Origin: an uncultured Acidobacteriota bacterium
GTDB taxonomy: Bacteria > Acidobacteriota > Thermoanaerobaculia > Thermoanaerobaculales > Thermoanaerobaculaceae
Assembly: GCA_963751245.1 (NCBI GenBank)
Contig: CAVVTR010000003.1
Coordinates: forward strand, 15,929-79,928
Length of the DNA: 64,000 nt
Reading direction: 5' to 3'
Positions 20,139 through 32,589 of this stretch are shown one piece after another. The notes under the pieces are model-generated. The model did no database searches. It was not told the origin of the DNA and saw only the letters and a list, made by a program, of their open reading frames with translations. The translations under genes and the position numbers were made by a program. Each line of letters opens with the position of its first letter. Position 1 is the first letter of the stretch.

Positions 20139-23000
20139 TCAGGAACGACGCCCCACCGCCGGGGGACCCGGCGGCAGGGACGCGGCGAAGGCGTCGAGGA
20201 CCTCGAGGTACGGCCGGATGGAGGGGATGAAGTGGCGCTCGCTGCGGCTGTGGGGGCCGATTCCGCTCTGGCCCCACACCACCGCGTTGCCTCCCGGGGC
20301 GAAGCGCGCCGACGTGCCGGCCAGCTTGCGCCCCACTCCGGGGGGACACCCGCCGACCCGCTCCACCGCGGTCAGCAGCAGCGCCAGCAGGGGGTTGTCC
20401 GGCGGACAGGCCACGCCGCCCTCCACCACCTCCGCGACCAGCTCGACCCCGTGGCGCCCGGCGATCTCCCCGAGCGCGGCGACGAGGCGCTCGGCGTCGT
20501 CGGCGGGGATCGGGCGCACCTCCAGGCCGAGGTTGCCGGTCCCGGCGGAGATGTTGTAGACGCCGACCTCGCCGACGTTGAGGAAGGGGAACGTGGCCGT
20601 GCTCCGCCACCCGTCGGGTGCCTCCAGCGTGAGCAGCCCTCCGAGCCGCTCCTCGAGCTCGGCGCGCACGGCGACGAGACGCCCCACGAGGTCCACCGGC
20701 CGCCCGGCGAACCCCGTGTGGGTCCGCTCGCCGTGGGCCACGAAGCGGACCCGCACCACGCCGCGGTTGGCCACGCACACCTCGCCGAGACGCTCGTCGC
20801 CGCCTTCTCCGGTCCGCTCCCCCACCAGCATCAGCTCCGGCCTCCAGCCCCGTTCCGCGGCGAGGTCGCGGAGCAGGTGGGGGGTCCCGAACGGCTCCCG
20901 CTCCCCGTTCTCCTCGTTGCCCACGAGCATCATCGACACCGGCGGCCAGGGCGGGCCCGCCCGGCGGCGCCGCAGCATCCACTCCACGTTGGTGGCCACG
21001 ACGGTCTTCATGTCGGCGCTGCCGCGCCCCCACAGGTAGTCCCCCTCGACGTGCGGCTCGAACTGGCTGTCGTTGGGCTCGGGACGGACCACGTCGAAGT
21101 GCCCGGAAAGCACGACGGGAGCGAGCAACGCCCCGGGAAACCCCGCGACGAGGGCCGGGTAGCGGCCCGTCTCCCACAGGCGCACCTCGAGGCCCGCCTC
21201 CTGCAAGGTGCCGGCAAGGAAGCGGGCGCAGCGTTCCACCTCGCCGAGGCGCTCGTCGGCGCAGTTGGTCACCGACGGAATGCGGATCAGCTCCACCGCC
21301 AGACGGACCACGGACGCGACCTCGCCGTCCGCCACCGCCGTGACGTCCGCCGGCGCCGGCGCCGCCGCGCGGACCGGCAGCGCGGCGTTCTCCCGGGTCC
21401 AGGCCTCGAACGGCACGGTGAGCTCGCCGAGCTTCCCCGCCTCCTCTCCGAGCTCGTGGCGCGCCTCCACCACCGCCGCCGTCTCCCGCGCCACCCGCTC
21501 GCGCTCCCCGGCGATCCACTCGAGCACGAGCCCTGGGGCCACCACCGGATCCCCCAGCAGGGTGCGCCGGGACGCCCGCATGCGCTGCTCGAGCCAGAGG
21601 CGGAGGCGCTGGGCGGGGTTCGCCGCCCCCTCCGCCATGGCCCGGACCGGCTCCAGCGCCTCCTCCCAGCCCAGCGCGGCGGCGAGCTCCCGGAGGTCCT
21701 CGAGGACGGCCGCCAGCCACTCGCGCATGGGCACGACCTCCCCGCTCCAGGGGTGCTCGACCACCGCGTCGAGCCCCCGCCTGGCCGCCGCTTCCTCGTT
21801 CCGCCGCGCCCGCCCGATGTCCGCGGCGTCGTAACGGAAGCCCGCGCCGTAGGCGGGGTCCGCGTAGATGCGCAGGACGAGCAGCTGCTTGAGGACGGTC
21901 CTGGCGACGGCGAGCTCCAGCGAGCCCCCGCCCTCGTCGGTGCGCACCTCGACCCGGGTCATGGGCAGGTCCACCAGGGCGCACAGGTTCTCGATCACCA
22001 GCGCCTGCTCGGCGACGGCCAGGTCGGGGTGCTCGTCGCTGGCGTAGATGCCCCGACGGTACAGCTCGGCGAGCTGCTCGGAGGTGGTGCGGACGATGAG
22101 GTTGATGGGGTCCACGTCGGAGCGGGCGCGCACGGGCGTCCAGTTGTTCGCCCCGAAGCGGACGCCCCGGCGCACCAGGTCGGTGGAGAGGCGCAGGTAG
22201 TCCGGGTAGCTCGCGTACAGCCCCGGTACGTCGAGCTCCGGGGGGTTGGGGAAGGTGAGCAACCGGTTGGAGTCGTTGGCGGTCAGCACGATCTCGCTGC
22301 GCCCCCCGGAGGTGGCGGCGGCCAGCGGCGTCGACGCGGAGACCGCGATGAACAGGGGGCAGAACGGCCGCAGCAGGCGGGCGGCGCGGATCATGGCGTC
22401 GTTGCGGAAGTCGGCCACCCCGCGTCCCTCGCGCCGGCCCCGGGGGAGGTGGATGAAGTCCCAGGCCAGGAGCGGTTCGGGCAGCGAGTGGTTGGAGTGG
22501 ATGCCGGCGGTCGCCAGGCGCGATCCGAACAGCTCGACGCAGCGCGCCAGGTAGCGGCGCTTGGCCAGGCTCCACCCCGCCGGGATGCTGTCGCGGTCCA
22601 CGACGGTGCGGTGGGGGATGTTGCCGTGGAGGGCGAGGAGGCGGTGGCCGGCCGACAGGCCCAGCTCGAACAGGACGTCGGTGAGCACGCCCTCCAGGAC
22701 GGCGGCCTCGAACGCCGGTCCGCGCACGTCGTAGTAGGGGCGGGTGGCGAACTCGACCATCCAGTGGAACACCTCCCGCTGGACCCGGCTGCGCGCCCAG
22801 GCCGGAATGCGCTCCTCCACCAGCACGTCGGCCAGCGAGCGGCGTCCGGGGCCGAAGCCGACCAGGCCCACCGGCGCCAGGCGCTCGTCGAGGACGTTGA
22901 ACTCGACCTCGAGACCGCAGGTCCCCGCCTCGAAGCGGTCCTTGACCGCGACCTCGACGGCGAGCTGGAGCTTCTCGGCGAAGCGGCCCCAGTCAGCCAT
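20139..23000 (-). CDS. fusion protein: glutamate-cysteine-ligase-like (GshA type) domain + M20 family metallopeptidase/deacylase domain
   Basis: 953-aa ORF. N-terminal ~540 aa: CGLEVEFNVLD, HWMVEFAT, AGIHSNHSLP, RVEVRTDEGG (E. coli GshA-type metal/substrate motifs). C-terminal ~400 aa: SGHFDVV, RGSADMK, VGNEENGE, AHGERTHTG, GIGPHSRSERH (M20 ArgE/DapE/CPG2-type). The frame is continuous across the linker at ~21330-21400. Confidence 0.8.
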   Translation of the reverse strand: MADWGRFAEKLQLAVEVAVKDRFEAGTCGLEVEFNVLDERLAPVGLVGFGPGRRSLADVLVEERIPAWARSRVQREVFHWMVEFATRPYYDVRGPAFEAAVLEGVLTDVLFELGLSAGHRLLALHGNIPHRTVVDRDSIPAGWSLAKRRYLARCVELFGSRLATAGIHSNHSLPEPLLAWDFIHLPRGRREGRGVADFRNDAMIRAARLLRPFCPLFIAVSASTPLAAATSGGRSEIVLTANDSNRLLTFPNPPELDVPGLYASYPDYLRLSTDLVRRGVRFGANNWTPVRARSDVDPINLIVRTTSEQLAELYRRGIYASDEHPDLAVAEQALVIENLCALVDLPMTRVEVRTDEGGGSLELAVARTVLKQLLVLRIYADPAYGAGFRYDAADIGRARRNEEAAARRGLDAVVEHPWSGEVVPMREWLAAVLEDLRELAAALGWEEALEPVRAMAEGAANPAQRLRLWLEQRMRASRRTLLGDPVVAPGLVLEWIAGERERVARETAAVVEARHELGEEAGKLGELTVPFEAWTRENAALPVRAAAPAPADVTAVADGEVASVVRLAVELIRIPSVTNCADERLGEVERCARFLAGTLQEAGLEVRLWETGRYPALVAGFPGALLAPVVLSGHFDVVRPEPNDSQFEPHVEGDYLWGRGSADMKTVVATNVEWMLRRRRAGPPWPPVSMMLVGNEENGEREPFGTPHLLRDLAAERGWRPELMLVGERTGEGGDERLGEVCVANRGVVRVRFVAHGERTHTGFAGRPVDLVGRLVAVRAELEERLGGLLTLEAPDGWRSTATFPFLNVGEVGVYNISAGTGNLGLEVRPIPADDAERLVAALGEIAGRHGVELVAEVVEGGVACPPDNPLLALLLTAVERVGGCPPGVGRKLAGTSARFAPGGNAVVWGQSGIGPHSRSERHFIPSIRPYLEVLDAFAASLPPGPPAVGRRS

Positions 23001-23027
23001 CGCGCCCCCGCGCCGCGCCGCCCGGCC

Positions 23028-24335
23028 TCACAGCGCCTCCAGCGCCTGCCACAGGCGGTCGGCCGCCCGCGCCGTGACTTGCGGTTCCAAGGCGTAGGAG
23101 AAGCGGATCCAGCGCGCCCCCCACGCGCTGAAGTAGACGCCGGGGACGACGGCGAGGCCGTTCCGCTCCGCCAGGTAGGCGCCCATCTGGGCCGAGTCCG
23201 CCATGCCGGCGCGGTCCATCCAGCGCCCCACGTCGATGAACGCGTAGTATCCCTGTCCGGCCACGTGGGACACGCCCCAGCGGGCAAGCCGCTCGCGCAG
23301 CACCCGCCGGCTCTCGTTGGTGGGCGCCACGATGGGCCGGCACGCCTCCGCGAAGCCCATCCGGTACGCGGCGATGGCCACGGCCTGGCTGTGGAACGAC
23401 GGGATCACCCCGTGGGAGGCCCGGCTCTGCGCGAGCCGGACCACCCGCTCGGAGGCCAGCAGGTGCGCGTTGCGCACGTTGCTCGCCCCGAGGGACTTGG
23501 TGATGCCGTCGAGGACGATGCAGCGCTCACGCTCCTCGCCGCTGAGCTCGCGCAGCATGGCGTTGAGGTCGAAGGGGCGCTCGTCGGTCACCCAGTGGTA
23601 GATCCAGTCGAAGATCACGAACGGCACGCCCGCGGCGAAGGCGGCGCGGGCGAGGGCGATCTGCTCCGCCAGCGGCTGCAGGCGTCCGGTGGGGTTGTCG
23701 GGGCTGGTAACGACCAGCGCCGCCACCTTGCGGCCGTCCAGCCGCGCCGCGGCCTCCACGCACTCGCGCACGGCCCCAGGCGTGATCGCCCACCCCGCGC
23801 GCTCCTCCCCCGGCGCCAGCATCACGTTGGCGCCGACCTCGTAGGGACCCCAGTTGTACGAGATCCACGGTACCCGGCTGGTGACCACGAAGTCGCCACG
23901 CCGCCCGAAGCCGAGGATCTGGACCGCCTCGTAGGCCTTGAGGAGGGCGTCGCGCCCGCCCTGGGCGGCGAGGACGTTGGCGGGGCCCCAGCCGGAGGCG
24001 GCGTCCAGGCCCCAGTACGGTCCGGCCACCGCGGCGCGGAACGCCTGGCACCCGAACGGCTGGTCGTAGGCGGTGCCGTGCTCCTTCTGCAGCGCGTGGG
24101 CGGCGTCGAGGAGCGCCTCCGGGACTCCCGGGAGGCTGGCGCCGCCGTCGCCCTGGCTGGCGTCGAAGACCTCGCCGTCCGGCAGCGCACGCCGGTAGAC
24201 CGCGAGGGCGTCGCGGATCTCGAACATGCGGCTGCCGGGGATCGGCGCCATGGTGGCGAGGCTCGGGTCGAGACCCGCCAGGCGCTCGCGGTCCACCACC
24301 GCCACCGGTCCGGTGCTCAGGGCCTCGCTGGACAT
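23028..24335 (-). CDS. PLP-dependent aminotransferase, class I/II
   Basis: 435 aa. VTSPDNPTG, FDWIYHW, and the Schiff-base Lys context GITKSLGASNVRNAH. Ends 27 nt upstream of the fusion gene. Confidence 0.85.
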   Translation of the reverse strand: MSSEALSTGPVAVVDRERLAGLDPSLATMAPIPGSRMFEIRDALAVYRRALPDGEVFDASQGDGGASLPGVPEALLDAAHALQKEHGTAYDQPFGCQAFRAAVAGPYWGLDAASGWGPANVLAAQGGRDALLKAYEAVQILGFGRRGDFVVTSRVPWISYNWGPYEVGANVMLAPGEERAGWAITPGAVRECVEAAARLDGRKVAALVVTSPDNPTGRLQPLAEQIALARAAFAAGVPFVIFDWIYHWVTDERPFDLNAMLRELSGEERERCIVLDGITKSLGASNVRNAHLLASERVVRLAQSRASHGVIPSFHSQAVAIAAYRMGFAEACRPIVAPTNESRRVLRERLARWGVSHVAGQGYYAFIDVGRWMDRAGMADSAQMGAYLAERNGLAVVPGVYFSAWGARWIRFSYALEPQVTARAADRLWQALEAL

Positions 24336-24487
24336 CCCGTCCCCCCTTCGGGTCCCCCGGCGGCCGGAGATGGCCGCCGCTCTGCTCCCTTTGAAACGAT
24401 GAAGCCAGCGTACCGCCGCTTTGTTCCCCTCTCAAGGCGGAGCGCCGCCGCCGGGCGCCGCCGCGGCGGCCGGGATAGCATCGGGAG

Positions 24488-25759
24488 GTGCGCATCCTCT
24501 TCCTGGCCGACCGCCTCTCCCTGCGCGGCGGGGCGGACCACCACCTGCGGCAGGTCATCGCCGCGGCGGCGGCCGCCGGCCACCGGGTGACGCTGGCCTG
24601 CGGCCGCGCCGAGCCGGGCGTCGGGCCTCCGGCCGGGGTGTCCCTGGTGCGCCTGCGCGGACTGGCCGCGCGCGCCGCCTCCGCCGCCCGCCTGACCGGC
24701 CTCGACGCCCTCCTCGCCGGTCACGACGTGGTGCACGCGCAGAACGTGATGAACCCGGTGGCGCTGGCCGCCGCGACCGCCGCGGGCCGGGCGGTGGTCA
24801 CCGTGCAGGACCACCGGGTGCTGTGCCCCGGTCCGGGAAAGACGCTCCCGGACGGGTCGCGGTGCCGCGTGGCCATGGACGAGGCGGCGTGCGCCGCCTG
24901 CCTGCCCGGCGTCGCGTACCGCGAGGAAATGCTCGCCCTCACGCGGGCCCGGCTCGAGGCGCTGCGCGGCGCCCGGCTCGTGGTGCTGTCGGACTACATG
25001 GCCCGCGAGCTCGCCGCCGCGGACCTGCCGGGCGCCCGGGTGCTGCCGCCCTGGGTGACGCCGGGCCCTCCCCGCGCGAGGCCCGGGGACGGCCTCCTCC
25101 TCGCCGGCCGGATGGTGGCGCACAAGGGCGTCATCGTCGCCTGGCGCGCCTGGCGCCGGGCCGCGACGCCCCTGCCCCTGCGGGTCGCCGGCAGCGGCCC
25201 GCTGGCGGCCGCCATGGACGGCGCCGCGCGGCTGGGCTGGCTGGACCGGGCGGCGCTGCGGCGGGAGCTGCGCCGCGCCCGGGCGCTGCTGTTCCCCTCG
25301 AGGTGGCAGGAGCCGTTCGGCATCCTCGGGGTCGAGGCGCTGGCCGAGGGCACGCCGGTGATCGTCGCGGACACCGGAGGCACCCGGTCCTGGTCCGCCG
25401 CCGGCTGCCTGCGGGTCCCGGCGGGCGACGCCGGCGCCATGGCCGAGGCCGTCTCGCGGCTCGCGGCCGACCCGTCCCTCGCACTGCGCCTCGGCCGCGA
25501 GGGGCAGGCCGCCGTGGCCGTCGTCTTCTCCCGGCGGCTCATCGAGCCCCGCCTCCTCGCCCTCTACGAGGCCGCCGCCCGCGCGGAGCCTAGCCCCGCC
25601 GGCGGGGGCGTGGAGGCCGAACGCCGCCGCCGGCAGCAGCACCACGGGATTCAGCACGAGAGCTCCGGGGCCATTCGGCGGTGCGGGAGCGCAGAGACCT
25701 CGCGGGCCGTGAACCGGCATGGGAAGTTGAGGGGAACCCCCGCCCACCCCGCGGGCTGA
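24488..25759 (+). CDS. GT4-type (GT-B) glycosyltransferase
   Basis: VRILFLADRLSLRGGADHHL N-terminus. C-terminal GT1/GT4 core FPSRWQEPFGILGVEALAEGTPVIVADTGG. The last ~70 aa (after ..LLALYEAAARA) are low-complexity with lower GC3 and may not be genuine. Confidence 0.75.
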   Translation: MRILFLADRLSLRGGADHHLRQVIAAAAAAGHRVTLACGRAEPGVGPPAGVSLVRLRGLAARAASAARLTGLDALLAGHDVVHAQNVMNPVALAAATAAGRAVVTVQDHRVLCPGPGKTLPDGSRCRVAMDEAACAACLPGVAYREEMLALTRARLEALRGARLVVLSDYMARELAAADLPGARVLPPWVTPGPPRARPGDGLLLAGRMVAHKGVIVAWRAWRRAATPLPLRVAGSGPLAAAMDGAARLGWLDRAALRRELRRARALLFPSRWQEPFGILGVEALAEGTPVIVADTGGTRSWSAAGCLRVPAGDAGAMAEAVSRLAADPSLALRLGREGQAAVAVVFSRRLIEPRLLALYEAAARAEPSPAGGGVEAERRRRQQHHGIQHESSGAIRRCGSAETSRAVNRHGKLRGTPAHPAG

Positions 25760-30751: not shown

Positions 30752-31870
30752 TCAGACGGCGCCGGCGCTCTCCACCACCTTCACCTGGTCGCCGTCCTTC
30801 AGGTTGAAACCGCCCCGCACGACCACCCGGTCGCCGGCGGCGAGCCCCTCCGAGACCTCGACGGTGTCGCCGGAGACGGTCCGGGCAGCCACCGGCCGCC
30901 GTCGCGCGACGTCGCCCGTGACCACGAACACCTCACCGCTGCCCTTCTCCACGTCCCAGCGGAGCAGCGCCCCGCGGGGGATGAGGAGCGCATCCTCGCG
31001 GGTCCCCGTGACGATACGGCCCTTGACGAACAGGCCGCCCCGCAGCGCGCCGTCATCGTTCCTCACCTCGGCCGTGACCTTCACCGCGCGGTCCAGCTCG
31101 CCCACCGCAGGGTTGATGTGGCGCACCGTCCCCTCGAACGTCTTCCCCGGCAGCGCGTCCACCGTGAAGAGGAGCGGCTGCCCCACCCGGACGGCCGCGC
31201 TGAAGGTGGAGGGCACCGACACCGTGAGGTCGAGGAGGCGGTTGTCCACGATGCGGAACATGGGCGCGCCGCTGCCCATGTTCTCCACGCGGTCTCCCAC
31301 GTTGACCCCGCGCTCAGCCACCACCCCGTCGATGGGCGCCCGGATCACCACCTTGTCCAGGCGGGTCTCCACCGCCGCCAGCTGGGCGCGGGCGGCGGCC
31401 GTCACCGCCTGGGCCGCGTCCCGGGCCGTGCGGGCGTCGTCGAGCTGCTGCTCGGTGACCAGTCCCACGTCCTTGAGCTTGAGGGCGCGCTCGAGCTCGC
31501 GGCGGGCCCGGGTCTCGGCCACCTCCGCCTGCTTCAGCGCGGCCCGCATCGTGTCCACGGCGTTCTCCGCCTCGCGGCTGTCGAGCCGGGCCAGGGGCTG
31601 CCCGCGGGTCACCGGCACCCACTCGGTGACGTAGACGTCCCTGACCACCGCTGTGAACTCCGACTTGACCTCCGCGGCGACCTTGGGGGCCAGCGTCCCC
31701 ACCACCCCGACGGCCTCGGTGACCCGTGCCGCGGAGACCTCCGCCACCTCCACCGCCACCGTCGGGCGCCCCGCCGACGCCCCCTCCTGCCCGGCGCCCT
31801 CGCGGGAGCACGCGCTCACCGCCACGCCGCAGACCGCCACCAGCACCACTGCCATCGCTCTTTGTCCCAT
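30752..31870 (-). CDS. efflux RND periplasmic adaptor (MFP, HlyD/AcrA family) lipoprotein
   Basis: Start at ATG 31870 (MGQRAMAVVLVAVCGVAVSAC lipobox). Coiled-coil hairpin and beta-barrel segments (..VIRAPIDGVVAERGVNVGD..). ATGA overlap with the tetR stop. Confidence 0.85.
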   Translation of the reverse strand: MGQRAMAVVLVAVCGVAVSACSREGAGQEGASAGRPTVAVEVAEVSAARVTEAVGVVGTLAPKVAAEVKSEFTAVVRDVYVTEWVPVTRGQPLARLDSREAENAVDTMRAALKQAEVAETRARRELERALKLKDVGLVTEQQLDDARTARDAAQAVTAAARAQLAAVETRLDKVVIRAPIDGVVAERGVNVGDRVENMGSGAPMFRIVDNRLLDLTVSVPSTFSAAVRVGQPLLFTVDALPGKTFEGTVRHINPAVGELDRAVKVTAEVRNDDGALRGGLFVKGRIVTGTREDALLIPRGALLRWDVEKGSGEVFVVTGDVARRRPVAARTVSGDTVEVSEGLAAGDRVVVRGGFNLKDGDQVKVVESAGAV

Positions 31871-32499
31871 CACGAAGACTCCTTCTCCCCCACCGGCGCC
31901 GCCAGGGCGCCGCGGAGCACCACGTCGAGCACCCGCGAGAGGGTGGTCCGGTCCACGCTCCACTCCGGGTGGCACAGGGCCAGGCCCTCCGCCGTGTCGA
32001 AGGCGCCGAGGACCGCCATCGCGACGATCTCGGGCTCCCCCTCGCGCAGCTCGCCGGAGGCCATGCCCTCGTTGACGAGTCCCAGCACCACCGCCTGCAG
32101 CCTCTCGTGAAAGGCGTCGAAGTCGAACAGCGGCGCGTCCTGCGGAGGTCCGAAGTAGAGGGCGTGGGCGACCCGCACCACGGAGAGGTTGCCGAGCACC
32201 AGTGCGAAGAGCTGGTCCATCAGCCGGTACAACCGCTCCGTGGCGGTACCTCCCGCGTCCAGGGCGGCGCCGATGGTCGCATCGAACAGCGCGAGCGCCC
32301 GGCTCATGATCTCGGCGAAGATCCCGTCCTTGCTGCCGAAGTAGTAGTACAGGACGGGCTTGGTGACCCCCGCGGCCTCGACGATCTCGCGCACGGTGGT
32401 GGCCGCGTAGCCCTTGCAGGCGAAGAGCTCCACCGCGGCGGCCATCAGCCGCTCCCGCGAGCTGTCGTCCTCCGCCGGACGGATCTCCCCTGCCTCCAC
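31870..32499 (-). CDS. TetR/AcrR family transcriptional regulator
   Basis: HTH RLMAAAVELFACKGYAATTVREIVEAAGVTKPVLYYYFGSKDGIF. Start set at GTG 32499 (GAAGGAGG 4 nt upstream); the track start is 32589. Confidence 0.85.
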   Translation of the reverse strand: MEAGEIRPAEDDSSRERLMAAAVELFACKGYAATTVREIVEAAGVTKPVLYYYFGSKDGIFAEIMSRALALFDATIGAALDAGGTATERLYRLMDQLFALVLGNLSVVRVAHALYFGPPQDAPLFDFDAFHERLQAVVLGLVNEGMASGELREGEPEIVAMAVLGAFDTAEGLALCHPEWSVDRTTLSRVLDVVLRGALAAPVGEKESS

Positions 32500-32517
32500 G
32501 CCGCCTCCTTCTGCCAC

Positions 32518-32543
32518 AAAAAAGCGGTCGTCTTGTGACGACC
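32518..32543 (-). promoter_or_regulatory. perfect 7-4-7 palindrome GGTCGTC-ACAA-GACGACC followed by T6: candidate TetR operator and/or intrinsic terminator
   Basis: Seen directly in the sequence. It lies between the putative -10 and the tetR SD (GAAGGAGG), and 100 nt downstream of the ALDH stop. Confidence 0.4.
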
Positions 32544-32561
32544 GGACACTACCTACCGATA

Positions 32562-32589
32562 AGTATAGGACACGACGCGCCGCCGTCAA
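32562..32589 (-). promoter_or_regulatory. putative promoter of the tetR-MFP-RND operon
   Basis: Minus strand TTGACG (32584-32589), 16 nt, TATACT (32562-32567), in a lower-GC spacer between the ALDH stop and the tetR start. Confidence 0.4.

What the first reader, a model, noticed from the sequence alone, without database searches (positions are those of the whole stretch)
20139..25759. Divergent GT4 glycosyltransferase / aminotransferase + GshA-like::M20 unit: candidate undescribed small-molecule pathway
Three genes share a 152-bp divergent control region (24336-24487).
- Minus strand: a class I/II PLP aminotransferase (23028-24335), followed 27 nt later by a 953-aa protein. That protein joins an E. 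coli-type glutamate-cysteine-ligase-like domain to an M20 (ArgE/DapE/CPG2-type) metallo-amidohydrolase.
- Plus strand: a GT4-type glycosyltransferase.

The combination of glycosyltransferase, deacylase and ATP-dependent carboxylate-amine (Cys) ligase is the logic of mycothiol (MshA/MshB/MshC) and bacillithiol (BshA/BshB/BshC) synthesis. The first enzyme in both of those pathways is also a GT4. Here the deacylase and ligase would come from non-homologous families: M20 instead of LmbE-type, and GshA-like instead of CysRS-like/BshC. They are also fused.

An alternative reading is gamma-glutamyl protect / transaminate / deprotect chemistry. I know of no characterised pathway with this composition. 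The functional link between the genes is inferred from adjacency only.
Basis: partly seen in the sequence, partly recalled or inferred. Interest (0 to 1): 0.75.

Follow-up and report, generated by a model that had tools for sequence, protein, structure and literature searches.

The report
Conserved aminotransferase–ligase–amidase module, function unknown
Two of the three flagged genes form a strongly conserved, uncharacterised three-enzyme module (aminotransferase, ATP-dependent ligase, metal amidase) in uncultured Acidobacteriota and Chloroflexota that probably attaches, uses and removes a temporary amide handle on an amino-acid-type metabolite, while the neighbouring glycosyltransferase is an unrelated bystander.

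Summary
The three genes, the 152-bp spacer and the 27-nt gap are exactly as described.

The real unit is the minus-strand operon: a class I PLP aminotransferase plus a 953-aa protein. That protein joins a ligase with the glutamate-cysteine-ligase/YbdK fold (11-18% identity to any solved member; not E. coli-type by sequence) to a DapE-like M20 amidohydrolase. Catalytic residues are intact in the aminotransferase and the M20 domain; the ligase keeps the superfamily's invariant acidic/His/Arg pattern.

The aminotransferase accompanies the fusion in 52 of 52 loci with full upstream sequence, is fused in-frame in two species, and all three occur as separate adjacent genes in three deeply diverged lineages.

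Best explanation (about 0.5): an ATP-driven ligate / transaminate / hydrolyse cycle, analogous to DapD/DapC/DapE. The substrate is unknown; tetrahydrodipicolinate to LL-diaminopimelate is the leading guess, and aspartate-family links are weak. No literature describes it.

The parts
23028..24335 (-). Class I (fold-type I) PLP aminotransferase, 435 aa; first gene of the conserved operon
   Evidence: PF00155, 76.6 bits. Invariant in the family alignment: NPTG N214, D243, Y246, Schiff-base K280, R288, alpha-carboxylate R411, plus the family-specific motif FDASQGDGG. An orthologue (49-75% identity) lies upstream on the same strand in 73 of 82 loci and in 52 of 52 with the full 8 kb upstream. No NCBIfam equivalog is reached; the best is GntC, 82 bits against a cut-off of 415.
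21393..23000 (-). Residues 1-536 of the 953-aa protein: ATP-dependent carboxylate-amine ligase domain of the GCL/YbdK/GS fold, ending in a long helix (488-536)
   Evidence: AF2 pLDDT 88.4, pTM 0.91. Foldseek hits: YbdK-type 1tt4/1r8g, GshF, GshA, plant GCL, PafA/Dop and GS. PF04107 at 20.5 bits against a cut-off of 21. Invariant E31, E33, E76, E83, H168, N170, E351, R353, including in the unfused clade. Only 121 hits at E<=1e-3 among 1.84 billion representative proteins.
21327..21392 (-). Residues 537-558: flexible interdomain linker
   Evidence: Low pLDDT and no secondary structure in the full-length model; poorly conserved columns in the alignment.
20139..21326 (-). Residues 559-953 plus the stop codon: M20 (ArgE/DapE/CPG2-type) di-metal amidohydrolase domain with dimerisation lid
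   Evidence: PF01546, 62.7 bits. Metal and catalytic residues H633/D635, D662, E695-E696, E727, H760 and H916 align with DapE and are invariant. Nearest solved relatives: uncharacterised 2rb7, then DapE structures (profile E~1e-14; Foldseek E 3e-20, TM 0.77, 13 of the top 15). Below every NCBIfam equivalog cut-off (DapE PRK13009, 76 vs 284 bits).
24336..24487 (.). 152-bp spacer upstream of the aminotransferase; presumed promoter region of the operon, shared divergently with the GT4 (inferred)
   Evidence: Sequence read directly. No sigma-70-like promoter or terminator, only GC-rich low-complexity inverted repeats, and no Rfam family. Its regulatory role is inferred from position only.
24488..25759 (+). 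GT4 glycosyltransferase, 423 aa: examined and excluded from the unit; an independent, conserved Acidobacteriota gene that happens to lie next to the operon in this genome
   Evidence: GT4 Pfam domains. Found in 0 of 82 fusion loci, even at E<=1. Orthologues at 57-67% identity, usually ~366 aa, are single genes in unrelated contexts. In the window it is flanked downstream by a convergent RND efflux gene.

Best explanation
The functional unit is the minus-strand two-gene operon (aminotransferase 23028-24335; ligase::M20 protein 20139-23000). The GT4 is not part of it. The operon is one form of a conserved three-activity module that most likely runs a ligate / transaminate / hydrolyse cycle on a small amino-acid-type metabolite. 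Step 1 (inferred): the GCL-fold domain uses ATP to activate a carboxylate and forms an amide. By analogy with its superfamily this is the gamma-carboxylate of glutamate joined to the alpha-amino group of the substrate. Step 2 (inferred): the PLP enzyme transaminates a carbonyl or amine elsewhere on that conjugate. Step 3 (inferred): the DapE-like M20 domain hydrolyses the N-acyl-amino-acid bond, releasing the product and recycling the handle. The net effect is an ATP-driven transamination of a substrate that cyclises or is otherwise hard to transaminate directly. This is the logic of DapD/DapC/DapE, with an ATP-dependent ligase replacing the acyl-CoA transferase. The substrate is unknown. The leading candidate is tetrahydrodipicolinate (as 2-amino-6-oxopimelate) to LL-diaminopimelate; others are P5C to ornithine, or an aspartate-family step. 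What is shown: the three activities are co-inherited and repeatedly fused, the aminotransferase and M20 domain keep their catalytic residues, and the ligase keeps the superfamily's invariant acidic/His/Arg pattern. What is inferred: the order of steps, the identity of the handle, the substrate and the direction (biosynthetic or catabolic).
For: Co-inheritance: the aminotransferase orthologue lies upstream on the same strand in 73 of 82 loci (57 within 350 nt). The other 9 have under 2 kb of upstream sequence. All 52 loci with 8 kb upstream have it. Nothing else is conserved beyond 23 of 80 loci, and the genes occasionally inserted between the pair are unrelated, so the module is self-contained. 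Fusion evidence: in-frame aminotransferase::ligase::M20 proteins of 1391 and 1380 aa occur in two species. Deep conservation: unfused adjacent triads occur in the P0255 clade (ligase-aminotransferase-M20, 4 loci), in L097/L099 and in L098 (aminotransferase-ligase-M20). A distant aminotransferase | ligase::M20 pair occurs in L087. Ligase identity between these lineages is only 23-30%. Competence: ligase fold and invariant acidic/His/Arg residues; M20 metal ligands aligned to DapE; aminotransferase PLP residues. Chemistry fit: DapE, which cleaves N-succinyl-LL-DAP, is the nearest characterised relative of the M20 domain by profile and by structure. Succinyl and gamma-glutamyl acyl groups are near-isosteric (established chemistry). 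Precedent for ATP-dependent gamma-glutamylation as a transient handle: BesA (bioRxiv 10.1101/2025.10.10.681649).
Against: There is no biochemical or genetic evidence of any kind. No dap, lys, arg or other pathway genes are conserved near the 82 loci, none are in the window, and no riboswitch or T-box names an end product. Host genomes could not be inventoried for canonical DapD/E/L, so complementarity is untested. GCL-like fold does not prove that glutamate is the acyl donor. The PLP enzyme could be a lyase or something else rather than a transaminase (its best NCBIfam hit is the cyclodehydratase GntC, far below cut-off). Glutathionylspermidine synthetase/amidase shows that a fused ligase and amidase can act on the same bond with no intervening step. 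In two close relatives (L097/L099, neighbouring genes ~90% identical) the ligase and aminotransferase are only 34% and ~30% identical, which argues against an essential housekeeping role in that clade.
Confidence: 0.5

Rival explanations
1. Low-molecular-weight thiol pathway: the GT4 makes a glycoside, the M20 deacylates it and the GCL-like ligase attaches cysteine, as in mycothiol or bacillithiol synthesis.
For: The three gene types are adjacent in this window and share a 152-bp divergent spacer. The ligase belongs to the superfamily that includes gamma-Glu-Cys ligases.
Against: GT4 relatives are absent from 82 of 82 fusion loci, even at E<=1. GT4 orthologues are stand-alone genes elsewhere. 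The GT4 scores 33 bits against the MshA cut-off of 462 and 25 bits against the BshA cut-off of 274. This scheme has no role for the universally linked, sometimes fused aminotransferase.
Confidence: 0.03
2. Ordinary gamma-glutamylcysteine/glutathione synthesis: the N-terminal domain is simply the organism's GshA, fused to a peptidase that trims gamma-glutamyl or Cys-Gly peptides.
For: GCL fold. Weak NCBIfam hits to cyanobacterial GshA and YbdK-type ligases. Some M20 enzymes are Cys-Gly dipeptidases (established knowledge, e.g. Dug1).
Against: No GshA model is reached: TIGR02048 at 40 bits against a cut-off of 249, and 8.5% hhalign probability against E. coli GshA. The family is isolated in sequence space. 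The obligate aminotransferase partner and triple fusions are unexplained. There is no gshB in the 64-kb window. The M20 domain is closest to DapE/ArgE-type N-acyl-amino-acid deacylases, not to dipeptidases.
Confidence: 0.06
3. Bifunctional synthetase/amidase 'homeostat': ligase and M20 make and break the same amide (as glutathionylspermidine synthetase/amidase does) to buffer the level of a gamma-glutamyl or similar conjugate. The aminotransferase only supplies or removes one of the building blocks.
For: Two opposing activities are fused in one polypeptide, joined by a flexible linker with no confident interdomain packing (pTM 0.61). A known precedent has the same architecture logic (GspSA, established knowledge). 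The module is self-contained.
Against: The aminotransferase is as tightly linked as the two fused domains, is sometimes fused N-terminally, and in one clade is encoded between the ligase and the M20. That placement is more natural for a middle step than for a supplier. No redox- or stress-related partners are conserved nearby.
Confidence: 0.15
4. Catabolic gamma-glutamylation route (Puu-like): an amine, diamine or diamino acid is gamma-glutamylated, its free amino group is transaminated to a carbonyl, and the M20 releases the product. This is the same three steps run in the degradative direction, in peptide- and amino-acid-fermenting bacteria.
For: The enzyme logic is the same as in the best explanation. 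GS-like gamma-glutamyl-amine ligases appear among the fold hits (1-naphthylamine GS, 8x6z). Rapid divergence of the ligase and aminotransferase between close relatives fits a shifting substrate range better than core biosynthesis. No biosynthetic genes are linked in the main family.
Against: Known Puu-type routes need an aldehyde dehydrogenase between transamination or oxidation and hydrolysis, and none is conserved nearby. There are no linked transporters or regulators typical of catabolic operons. One clade places the module in an operon with asparagine synthetase A, which is a biosynthetic context.
Confidence: 0.12

Closest known systems
Succinylase branch of diaminopimelate synthesis (DapD / DapC / DapE)
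   Same: Three consecutive steps: N-acylate a cyclising amino-keto acid, transaminate, deacylate. The deacylase is an M20 enzyme, and DapE is the nearest characterised relative of the M20 domain here by profile and by structure. The transaminase is a PLP enzyme (class I in actinobacteria).
   Different: The acylating enzyme here is an ATP-dependent GCL-fold ligase, not a succinyl-CoA-dependent left-handed beta-helix transferase. The M20 and the aminotransferase fall far below the DapE, DapC and DapL equivalog cut-offs. No dapA, dapB, dapF or lysA linkage was seen. The substrate is unproven.
Amino-group carrier protein pathways (LysX / LysJ / LysK with LysW; ArgX)
   Same: An ATP-dependent ligase attaches the substrate's alpha-amino group to a glutamate gamma-carboxylate, an aminotransferase acts on the conjugate, and an M20 hydrolase (LysK) releases the product.
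   Different: There the ligase is an ATP-grasp enzyme and the glutamate is the C-terminus of a carrier protein. No conserved small ORF or carrier lies next to this operon. Kinase and reductase steps intervene in Lys/Arg synthesis. The [LysW]-lysine hydrolase model scores only 30 bits against a cut-off of 363.
Glutamate-cysteine ligases and YbdK-type carboxylate-amine ligases (PF04262, PF04107; EgtA, GshA, GshF)
   Same: Same fold (Foldseek probability 1.00), a conserved acidic/His/Arg active-site pattern and the GxHxNxSLP motif shared with E. coli GshA.
   Different: Identity to every solved member is 11-18%. The window protein is below the Pfam cut-off. The family is isolated: 121 hits among 1.84 billion representatives. 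It is always linked to an aminotransferase and an M20, which GshA, YbdK and EgtA are not.
BesA in beta-ethynylserine biosynthesis (cryptic gamma-glutamylation)
   Same: An ATP-dependent ligase gamma-glutamylates a free amino acid so that a downstream enzyme can modify it.
   Different: That is a specialised Streptomyces natural-product cluster with halogenase and hydroxylase partners. It has no dedicated fused M20 and no aminotransferase step on the conjugate. Homology between BesA and this ligase was not tested.
Glutathionylspermidine synthetase/amidase (GspSA)
   Same: A single polypeptide that joins an ATP-dependent amide-forming domain to an amide-hydrolysing domain.
   Different: Both domains are non-homologous to those here (ATP-grasp synthetase and CHAP amidase). 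GspSA has no obligate aminotransferase partner.
Mycothiol / bacillithiol synthesis (MshA-C, BshA-C)
   Different: The GT4 is not linked to the other two outside this genome (0 of 82 loci). The deacylase and ligase are from unrelated families. The conserved third partner is an aminotransferase, not a glycosyltransferase.

Membership tests
Mycothiol/bacillithiol-type thiol pathway | GT4 orthologous to MshA or BshA | tested here: not met
   NCBIfam TIGR03449 MshA: 33.3 bits against a cut-off of 462.5. TIGR03999 BshA: 25.3 bits against 273.7.
Mycothiol/bacillithiol-type thiol pathway | Glycosyltransferase co-occurs with the deacylase and ligase across genomes | tested here: not met
   0 of 82 fusion loci contain a GT4 relative within 8 kb, even at E<=1. 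Three GT4 orthologue loci have no fusion and no orthologous aminotransferase next to the GT4; one has an unrelated PF00155 gene about 3 kb away on the opposite strand.
Mycothiol/bacillithiol-type thiol pathway | LmbE-type deacetylase and a CysRS-like (MshC) or BshC ligase | tested here: not met
   The domains are M20 and GCL-fold instead. No LmbE, MshC or BshC family was found in the scanned window genes.
Mycothiol/bacillithiol-type thiol pathway | Production of a cysteine-containing glycoside thiol | not testable with these tools
   Needs thiol profiling or LC-MS.
Glutamate-cysteine ligase (GshA, E. coli type PF04262; or GCS2 PF04107) | GCL/GS-like ligase fold | tested here: met
   AF2 model pLDDT 88.4; Foldseek probability 1.00 to 1tt4, 1r8g, 3ln7, 3nzt, 1v4g and 2gwc.
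Glutamate-cysteine ligase (GshA, E. coli type PF04262; or GCS2 PF04107) | Sequence membership (family HMM above its curated cut-off) | tested here: not met
   PF04107: 20.5 bits against 21; no PF04262 hit. TIGR02048 gshA_cyano: 40.5 bits against 249. hhalign against E. coli GshA: 8.5% probability. Many homologues do carry a precomputed PF04107 hit, so the family is a borderline outlier of GCS2.
Glutamate-cysteine ligase (GshA, E. coli type PF04262; or GCS2 PF04107) | Conserved metal/ATP-binding residues | tested here: inconclusive
   E31, E33, E76, E83, H168, N170, E351 and R353 are invariant, including in the unfused clade. H168 aligns with GshA H150. Assigning the other residues to GshA E27/E29/E67/E328/R330 rests on my memory of the GshA structure papers, not on a residue-level superposition.
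Glutamate-cysteine ligase (GshA, E. coli type PF04262; or GCS2 PF04107) | Glu + Cys ligase activity, and a gshB partner in the genome | not testable with these tools
   No gshB in the 64-kb window.
M20 ArgE/DapE/CPG2-type amidohydrolases | Peptidase_M20 domain above cut-off, with dimerisation lid | tested here: met
   PF01546: 62.7 bits against 24.6. Full-length alignment to DapE including the lid and GH760 motif. Foldseek TM 0.77 to DapE.
M20 ArgE/DapE/CPG2-type amidohydrolases | Di-metal ligands and general base (DapE H67, D100, E134/E135, E163, H349 equivalents) | tested here: met
   H633, D662, E695/E696, E727 and H916 align to the DapE motifs and are invariant in 21 sequences.
DapE (succinyl-diaminopimelate desuccinylase) orthologue | Equivalog-level sequence score | tested here: not met
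   PRK13009: 75.9 bits against 284. TIGR01246: 41.4 bits against 361.8. It is DapE-like but not a DapE orthologue.
Class I/II PLP aminotransferases | PF00155 above cut-off and the PLP-binding residues | tested here: met
   76.6 bits against 19.7. N214, D243, Y246, K280, R288 and R411 are invariant.
DapC / DapL / AspC orthologue | Equivalog-level score to a characterised transaminase | tested here: not met
   DapC_actino: 33.7 bits against 355.7. DAPAT_plant: 26.3 bits against 364.7. Archaeal AspAT: 56.4 bits against 550.
Acylate-transaminate-deacylate DAP branch (functional analogy) | Linkage to dapA, dapB, dapF or lysA, or a lysine-responsive regulator | tested here: not met
   No such genes appear among the neighbour clusters present in at least 6 of 82 loci. 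No L-box or T-box. This lowers the DAP guess but does not exclude it.
Acylate-transaminate-deacylate DAP branch (functional analogy) | Host genomes lack DapD/C/E, DapL and Ddh | not testable with these tools

The most novel reading that the evidence does not exclude
The module is a previously unrecognised, ATP-dependent (gamma-glutamyl-handle) route from tetrahydrodipicolinate to LL-diaminopimelate. That would be a fifth variant of the DAP/lysine pathway, replacing DapD/DapC/DapE or DapL in uncultured Thermoanaerobaculia, Aminicenantes, Holophagae-related Acidobacteriota and Anaerolineales. More generally, it could be a new class of ATP-driven transamination machine.
Probability: 0.17. Interest if true: 0.85.

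Novelty: new variant of a known kind. Interest (0 to 1): 0.6.

Why it matters
If the inferred cycle is right, this is a new enzymatic way to run the classic protect / transaminate / deprotect strategy, using a glutamate-cysteine-ligase-fold enzyme as the protecting step. It is packaged as a self-contained two-gene or even single-polypeptide unit. The module is present in at least 150 species-level genomes of abundant but uncultured sediment, groundwater and digester bacteria, where automatic annotation labels it only 'M20 metallo-hydrolase' or 'succinyl-diaminopimelate desuccinylase'. Identifying its substrate would correct those metabolic reconstructions. It could fill a gap in amino-acid (possibly lysine/peptidoglycan) biosynthesis and would give a compact ATP-driven transamination cassette for biocatalysis. 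The function is directly testable by complementation and in vitro assays.

Tried and rejected
- GT4 as part of the unit: rejected. 0 of 82 loci have it, and its orthologues have contexts of their own.
- Extra conserved pathway genes: neighbour clustering over 82 loci found only lineage synteny (RecG, LdcA, PMM, SRAP and others in at most 23 loci). Genes inserted between the aminotransferase and the fusion are unrelated: GSDH, WD40/glyoxalase and a cytochrome c.
- LysW-like carrier or other small ORF next to the operon: none conserved.
- Riboswitch or T-box that would name the end product: none at Rfam gathering thresholds in the window plus 4 loci. Only sub-threshold Phe_leader hits in the low-GC loci.
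- Leader RNA: a covariance model of the leader found in L093-L095 hit nothing else in 1.06 Mb.
- pyr or car linkage in the main family: 0 of 82 loci.
- Purine-gene linkage: L097 and L099 are close relatives, so it counts as a single observation.
- E. coli-type GshA membership: rejected by hhalign.
- More relatives of the distant fusion P0317: it is a singleton.
- Phage relatives of the phage-like ligase P0265: none in INPHARED.
- Literature: no description of the fusion or the triad. The GapMind 2026 preprint covers a different alternative DapE.
- Promoter, terminator and operator scans of the 152-bp spacer: nothing above background.
- Whole-genome inventory of gshB, dap, arg and msh genes: not possible with the caps; only the 64-kb window could be checked.

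Full report
**Observation.**
- 20139-23000 (-), 953 aa
- 23028-24335 (-), 435 aa, 27 nt upstream of the first
- 24488-25759 (+), 423 aa, across a 152-bp spacer

The window has about 73% G+C, and all three ORFs have GC3 of 0.96, typical of real genes here. Pfam confirms Aminotran_1_2, Peptidase_M20 (residues 631-939 of the large protein) and GT4 domains.

The N-terminal ~540 residues of the large protein gave no significant Pfam hit at first. On their own they reach only GCS2 (PF04107) at 20.5 bits against a cut-off of 21, and YbdK (1r8g) at E = 0.1. With a family profile YbdK reaches E = 7e-5. An AlphaFold model built on 31 sequences is confident (pLDDT 88.4, pTM 0.91). It matches YbdK-type proteins, GshF, Francisella and E. 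coli GshA, plant GCL, then PafA/Dop and glutamine synthetases, at Foldseek probability 1.00 but only 11-18% identity. hhalign against E. coli GshA aligns just one motif, AGIH168SNHSLP against SGVH150YNFSLP, at 8.5% probability. So 'GshA-like' is right at the level of fold. 'E. coli-type' is not supported by sequence.

**What is conserved.** The ligase::M20 fusion has more than 1,500 homologues. The top 120 are full-length at 55-70% identity, mostly from Acidobacteriota MAGs. A scan of GTDB species representatives found 150 loci, of which 80 were kept. They come from Thermoanaerobaculia, Sulfomarinibacteraceae, Holophagae-labelled MAGs, Aminicenantes and Anaerolineales, and all are MAGs.

tblastn of the window's proteins against 82 loci gave the following:
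- The aminotransferase orthologue (49-75% identity) lies upstream on the same strand in 73 loci, and within 350 nt in 57 of those.
- The remaining 9 loci have under 2 kb of upstream sequence.
- All 52 loci with the full 8 kb upstream have it.

A relative of the GT4 is present in none, even at E <= 1. All-against-all clustering of neighbouring ORFs found nothing else in more than 23 of 80 loci: RecG, LD-carboxypeptidase, phosphomannomutase, an SRAP peptidase and similar, which is lineage synteny. Genes occasionally inserted between the pair are unrelated. No conserved small ORF or carrier protein is adjacent.

Two species encode one continuous aminotransferase::ligase::M20 protein of 1391 and 1380 aa.

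**The GT4.** It belongs to its own conserved Acidobacteriota family (57-67% identity, usually about 366 aa; the window copy has a C-terminal extension of about 57 aa). In three long contigs its orthologues are single genes in unrelated contexts, with no fusion and no orthologous aminotransferase next to them. In the window it is monocistronic, lying between the divergent operon and a convergent RND efflux gene. It scores far below the MshA and BshA cut-offs.

**Depth of the triad.** An exhaustive search with the ligase domain against 1.84 billion representative proteins returned only 121 hits at E <= 1e-3, mostly fragments of the same family. The family is isolated in sequence space. The few distant full-length relatives are informative:

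| Relative | Locus | Arrangement |
|---|---|---|
| P0255 (29% identity) | L090, L093-L095 | operon ligase → aminotransferase → M20, kept in all four loci |
| P0310 / P0355 | L097 / L099 | divergent aminotransferase → ligase → M20 (hhalign 96.7% for the L097 aminotransferase; only its C-terminal fragment is available in L099) |
| P0358 | L098 | aminotransferase → ligase → M20-like gene, cut by the contig end |
| P0317 (997 aa, 26% identity) | L087-L089 | ligase::M20 fusion with a divergent aminotransferase 9 nt upstream |

The three activities are therefore co-inherited across five lineages whose ligases share only 23-30% identity. They occur in four arrangements: aminotransferase | ligase::M20; aminotransferase::ligase::M20; ligase | aminotransferase | M20; and aminotransferase | ligase | M20.

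**Catalytic competence.**
- M20 domain: H633/D635, D662, E695-E696, E727, the lid GH760 motif and H916 align with the DapE metal ligands and general base and are invariant.
- Aminotransferase: the NPTG asparagine (N214), D243, Y246, the Schiff-base lysine K280, R288 and the alpha-carboxylate arginine R411 are invariant, including in the unfused clade. There is also an unusual family motif, FDASQGDGG. Assigning these to AspAT roles rests on my general knowledge of class I aminotransferases.
- Ligase: E31, E33, E76, E83, H168, N170, E351 and R353 are invariant.
- Full-length model: both domains are confident, but their relative orientation is not (pLDDT 82.6, pTM 0.61). They are joined by a long helix (488-536) and a flexible linker.

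By profile and by structure, the nearest characterised relatives of the M20 domain are DapE desuccinylases. These give E ~1e-14 in the profile search, and in Foldseek they take 13 of the top 15 hits at E 3e-20 and TM 0.77. The uncharacterised 2rb7 ranks alongside them, and ArgE and carboxypeptidase G2 follow. All NCBIfam equivalog cut-offs are missed by wide margins for both proteins of the operon.

**Mechanism.** M20 enzymes of this clade hydrolyse N-acyl-L-amino acids, and GCL-type ligases join a side-chain carboxylate, via an acyl phosphate, to the alpha-amino group of an amino acid. Both statements are established family knowledge. A ligase and a hydrolase acting on the same kind of bond, always accompanied by a transaminase and sometimes fused to it, is most simply explained by a ligate / transaminate / hydrolyse cycle. 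That is the logic of DapD/DapC/DapE, of LysX/LysJ/LysK and of N-acetylornithine metabolism. ATP-dependent gamma-glutamylation as a transient handle has a documented precedent in BesA. I put about 0.5 on this general mechanism.

The substrate is not established. Tetrahydrodipicolinate to LL-DAP is the leading guess for three reasons: it needs exactly three consecutive steps, the M20 is DapE-like, and succinyl and gamma-glutamyl groups are nearly isosteric.

**Evidence on the substrate is thin.** No dap, lys or arg genes are linked in the main family or in the window. No riboswitch or T-box was found. Host genomes could not be inventoried.

Three distant lineages place the module near aspartate-using enzymes:
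- an archaeal-type asparagine synthetase A, 22 nt upstream in the same operon in L094
- PyrB and the pyr cluster around the L087 pair
- purC, purE and purB next to the L097/L099 triad

Only the asnA case is on the same strand. The pyr and pur genes are in opposite orientation. L097 and L099 are close relatives, so they count as one observation. pyr and car genes are absent from all 82 main-family loci. This is a weak hint of an aspartate-family connection, and lysine/DAP is itself an aspartate-family product.

One observation cuts against a core housekeeping role. Between L097 and L099 the flanking dcd, purB and purC are about 90% identical. The M20 is 71% identical, the ligase 34.5% and the aminotransferase about 30%.

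**Rivals.** These are an ordinary GshA (0.06), a GspSA-like synthetase/amidase homeostat (0.15), a Puu-like catabolic gamma-glutamylation route (0.12) and the thiol pathway including the GT4 (0.03). Evidence for and against each is given in the rival section.

**Novelty.** Library searches (Pfam, NCBIfam), PDB sequence and fold searches, and five literature searches found no description of this fusion or triad. Public annotations call it 'M20/M25/M40 family metallo-hydrolase' or 'succinyl-diaminopimelate desuccinylase'. All component folds are known and the proposed logic is known. What is new is the combination, with a GCL-fold ligase as the protecting enzyme fused to its own deprotecting M20. 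I therefore class it as a new variant of a known kind and rate interest at 0.6. It is a robust, widely distributed module that can be tested directly, but its substrate and physiological role remain inferred.

Noticed in passing
L094:2111-2226, L095:1177-1292, L093:123-238: A ~116-nt conserved leader lies immediately upstream of the first gene of the unfused triad operon. It has a 5' CCCACCAGA box, the stretch AAUGAGAGAUAAUAAGAA, a GGGCUUUCUGC/GCAGAAAGCCC hairpin and a GCCCACCA/UGGUGGGC+U6 terminator whose 3' arm can instead pair with the 5' box, which is attenuator or riboswitch anatomy. It may encode a leader peptide, M-R-D-N-K-N-x-x-x-G-F-L-L-L, rich in Asp/Asn/Lys codons, but there is no obvious Shine-Dalgarno sequence. 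It is not in Rfam (only sub-threshold Phe_leader hits). A covariance model finds it only in these three loci, which are too few for covariation.
   Followed up: partly
L094:2243-3181 (+): An archaeal-type (AsnRS-like) asparagine synthetase A (NCBIfam NF005054, 386 bits against a cut-off of 309; closest structures 1nnh and 3p8t) sits 22 nt upstream of the ligase in the same operon and downstream of the conserved leader. It is absent from the equivalent position in L095.
   Followed up: partly
L087:148-12767 (also L088, L089): The most distant aminotransferase | ligase::M20 pair (P0317, 997 aa) is inserted in inverse orientation inside a pyrimidine cluster: pyrF, pyrE, pyrK, pyrD, pyrC, then the pair, then pyrB, then carA. 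The OTCase-family gene is a true PyrB (350 bits against a cut-off of 237). P0317 has no other relatives in the word-indexed database.
   Followed up: partly
L097:6443-14573 and L099:2-6935: Two close relatives (dcd, purB and purC ~90% identical) carry the unfused triad next to dcd-purB-purE-purC. Their M20 proteins are 71% identical, their ligases 34.5% and their aminotransferases ~30%. This means either cassette replacement or very fast evolution of two of the three enzymes.
   Followed up: partly
L091:3961-5337: The ligase domain's closest relative for which no aminotransferase or M20 partner was found (P0265, 458 aa, 30% identity, E 1e-35) lies in a 26%-GC contig packed with about 30 tiny same-strand ORFs plus a macro-domain protein. 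This looks like a phage. There is no match in the INPHARED phage collection.
   Followed up: partly
window:26166-30638 (-): A single 1490-aa ORF joins a complete AcrB-type RND transporter (PF00873, residues 4-1014, 884 bits) to a complete outer-membrane-factor module (two OEP repeats in the last 484 aa). An HlyD-type membrane-fusion gene (30752-31975) and a TetR regulator (31870-32589) lie upstream. An RND::OMF fusion is an unusual architecture. It also shows that the host is diderm.
   Followed up: partly
window:3844-6168 (-): A 774-aa protein has a strong class I/II aminotransferase domain (268 bits, residues 30-388) followed by ~385 residues with no Pfam match.
   Followed up: partly
window:24488-25759 (+); L086:7130-7510: The GT4 belongs to a well conserved, uncharacterised single-gene family of Acidobacteriota (57-67% identity, including Vicinamibacterales). 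The window copy carries a ~57-aa C-terminal extension, one homologue (P0131, 629 aa) is fused to a GT2 domain, and in L086 a gamma-glutamylcyclotransferase-like (GGACT) gene follows it.
   Followed up: no
window:12547-14847 (+): A 766-aa protein has only a partial PEPCK_ATP match (residues 314-543, 85 bits). It looks like an atypical, extended PEP-carboxykinase-like protein.
   Followed up: no
window:32644-36618 (-): A run of aldehyde dehydrogenase, homoserine dehydrogenase and a 500-aa Cys/Met-metabolism PLP enzyme lies 7-12 kb from the operon. These are aspartate-family or sulfur amino-acid genes, but they are not linked to the module in other genomes.
   Followed up: no
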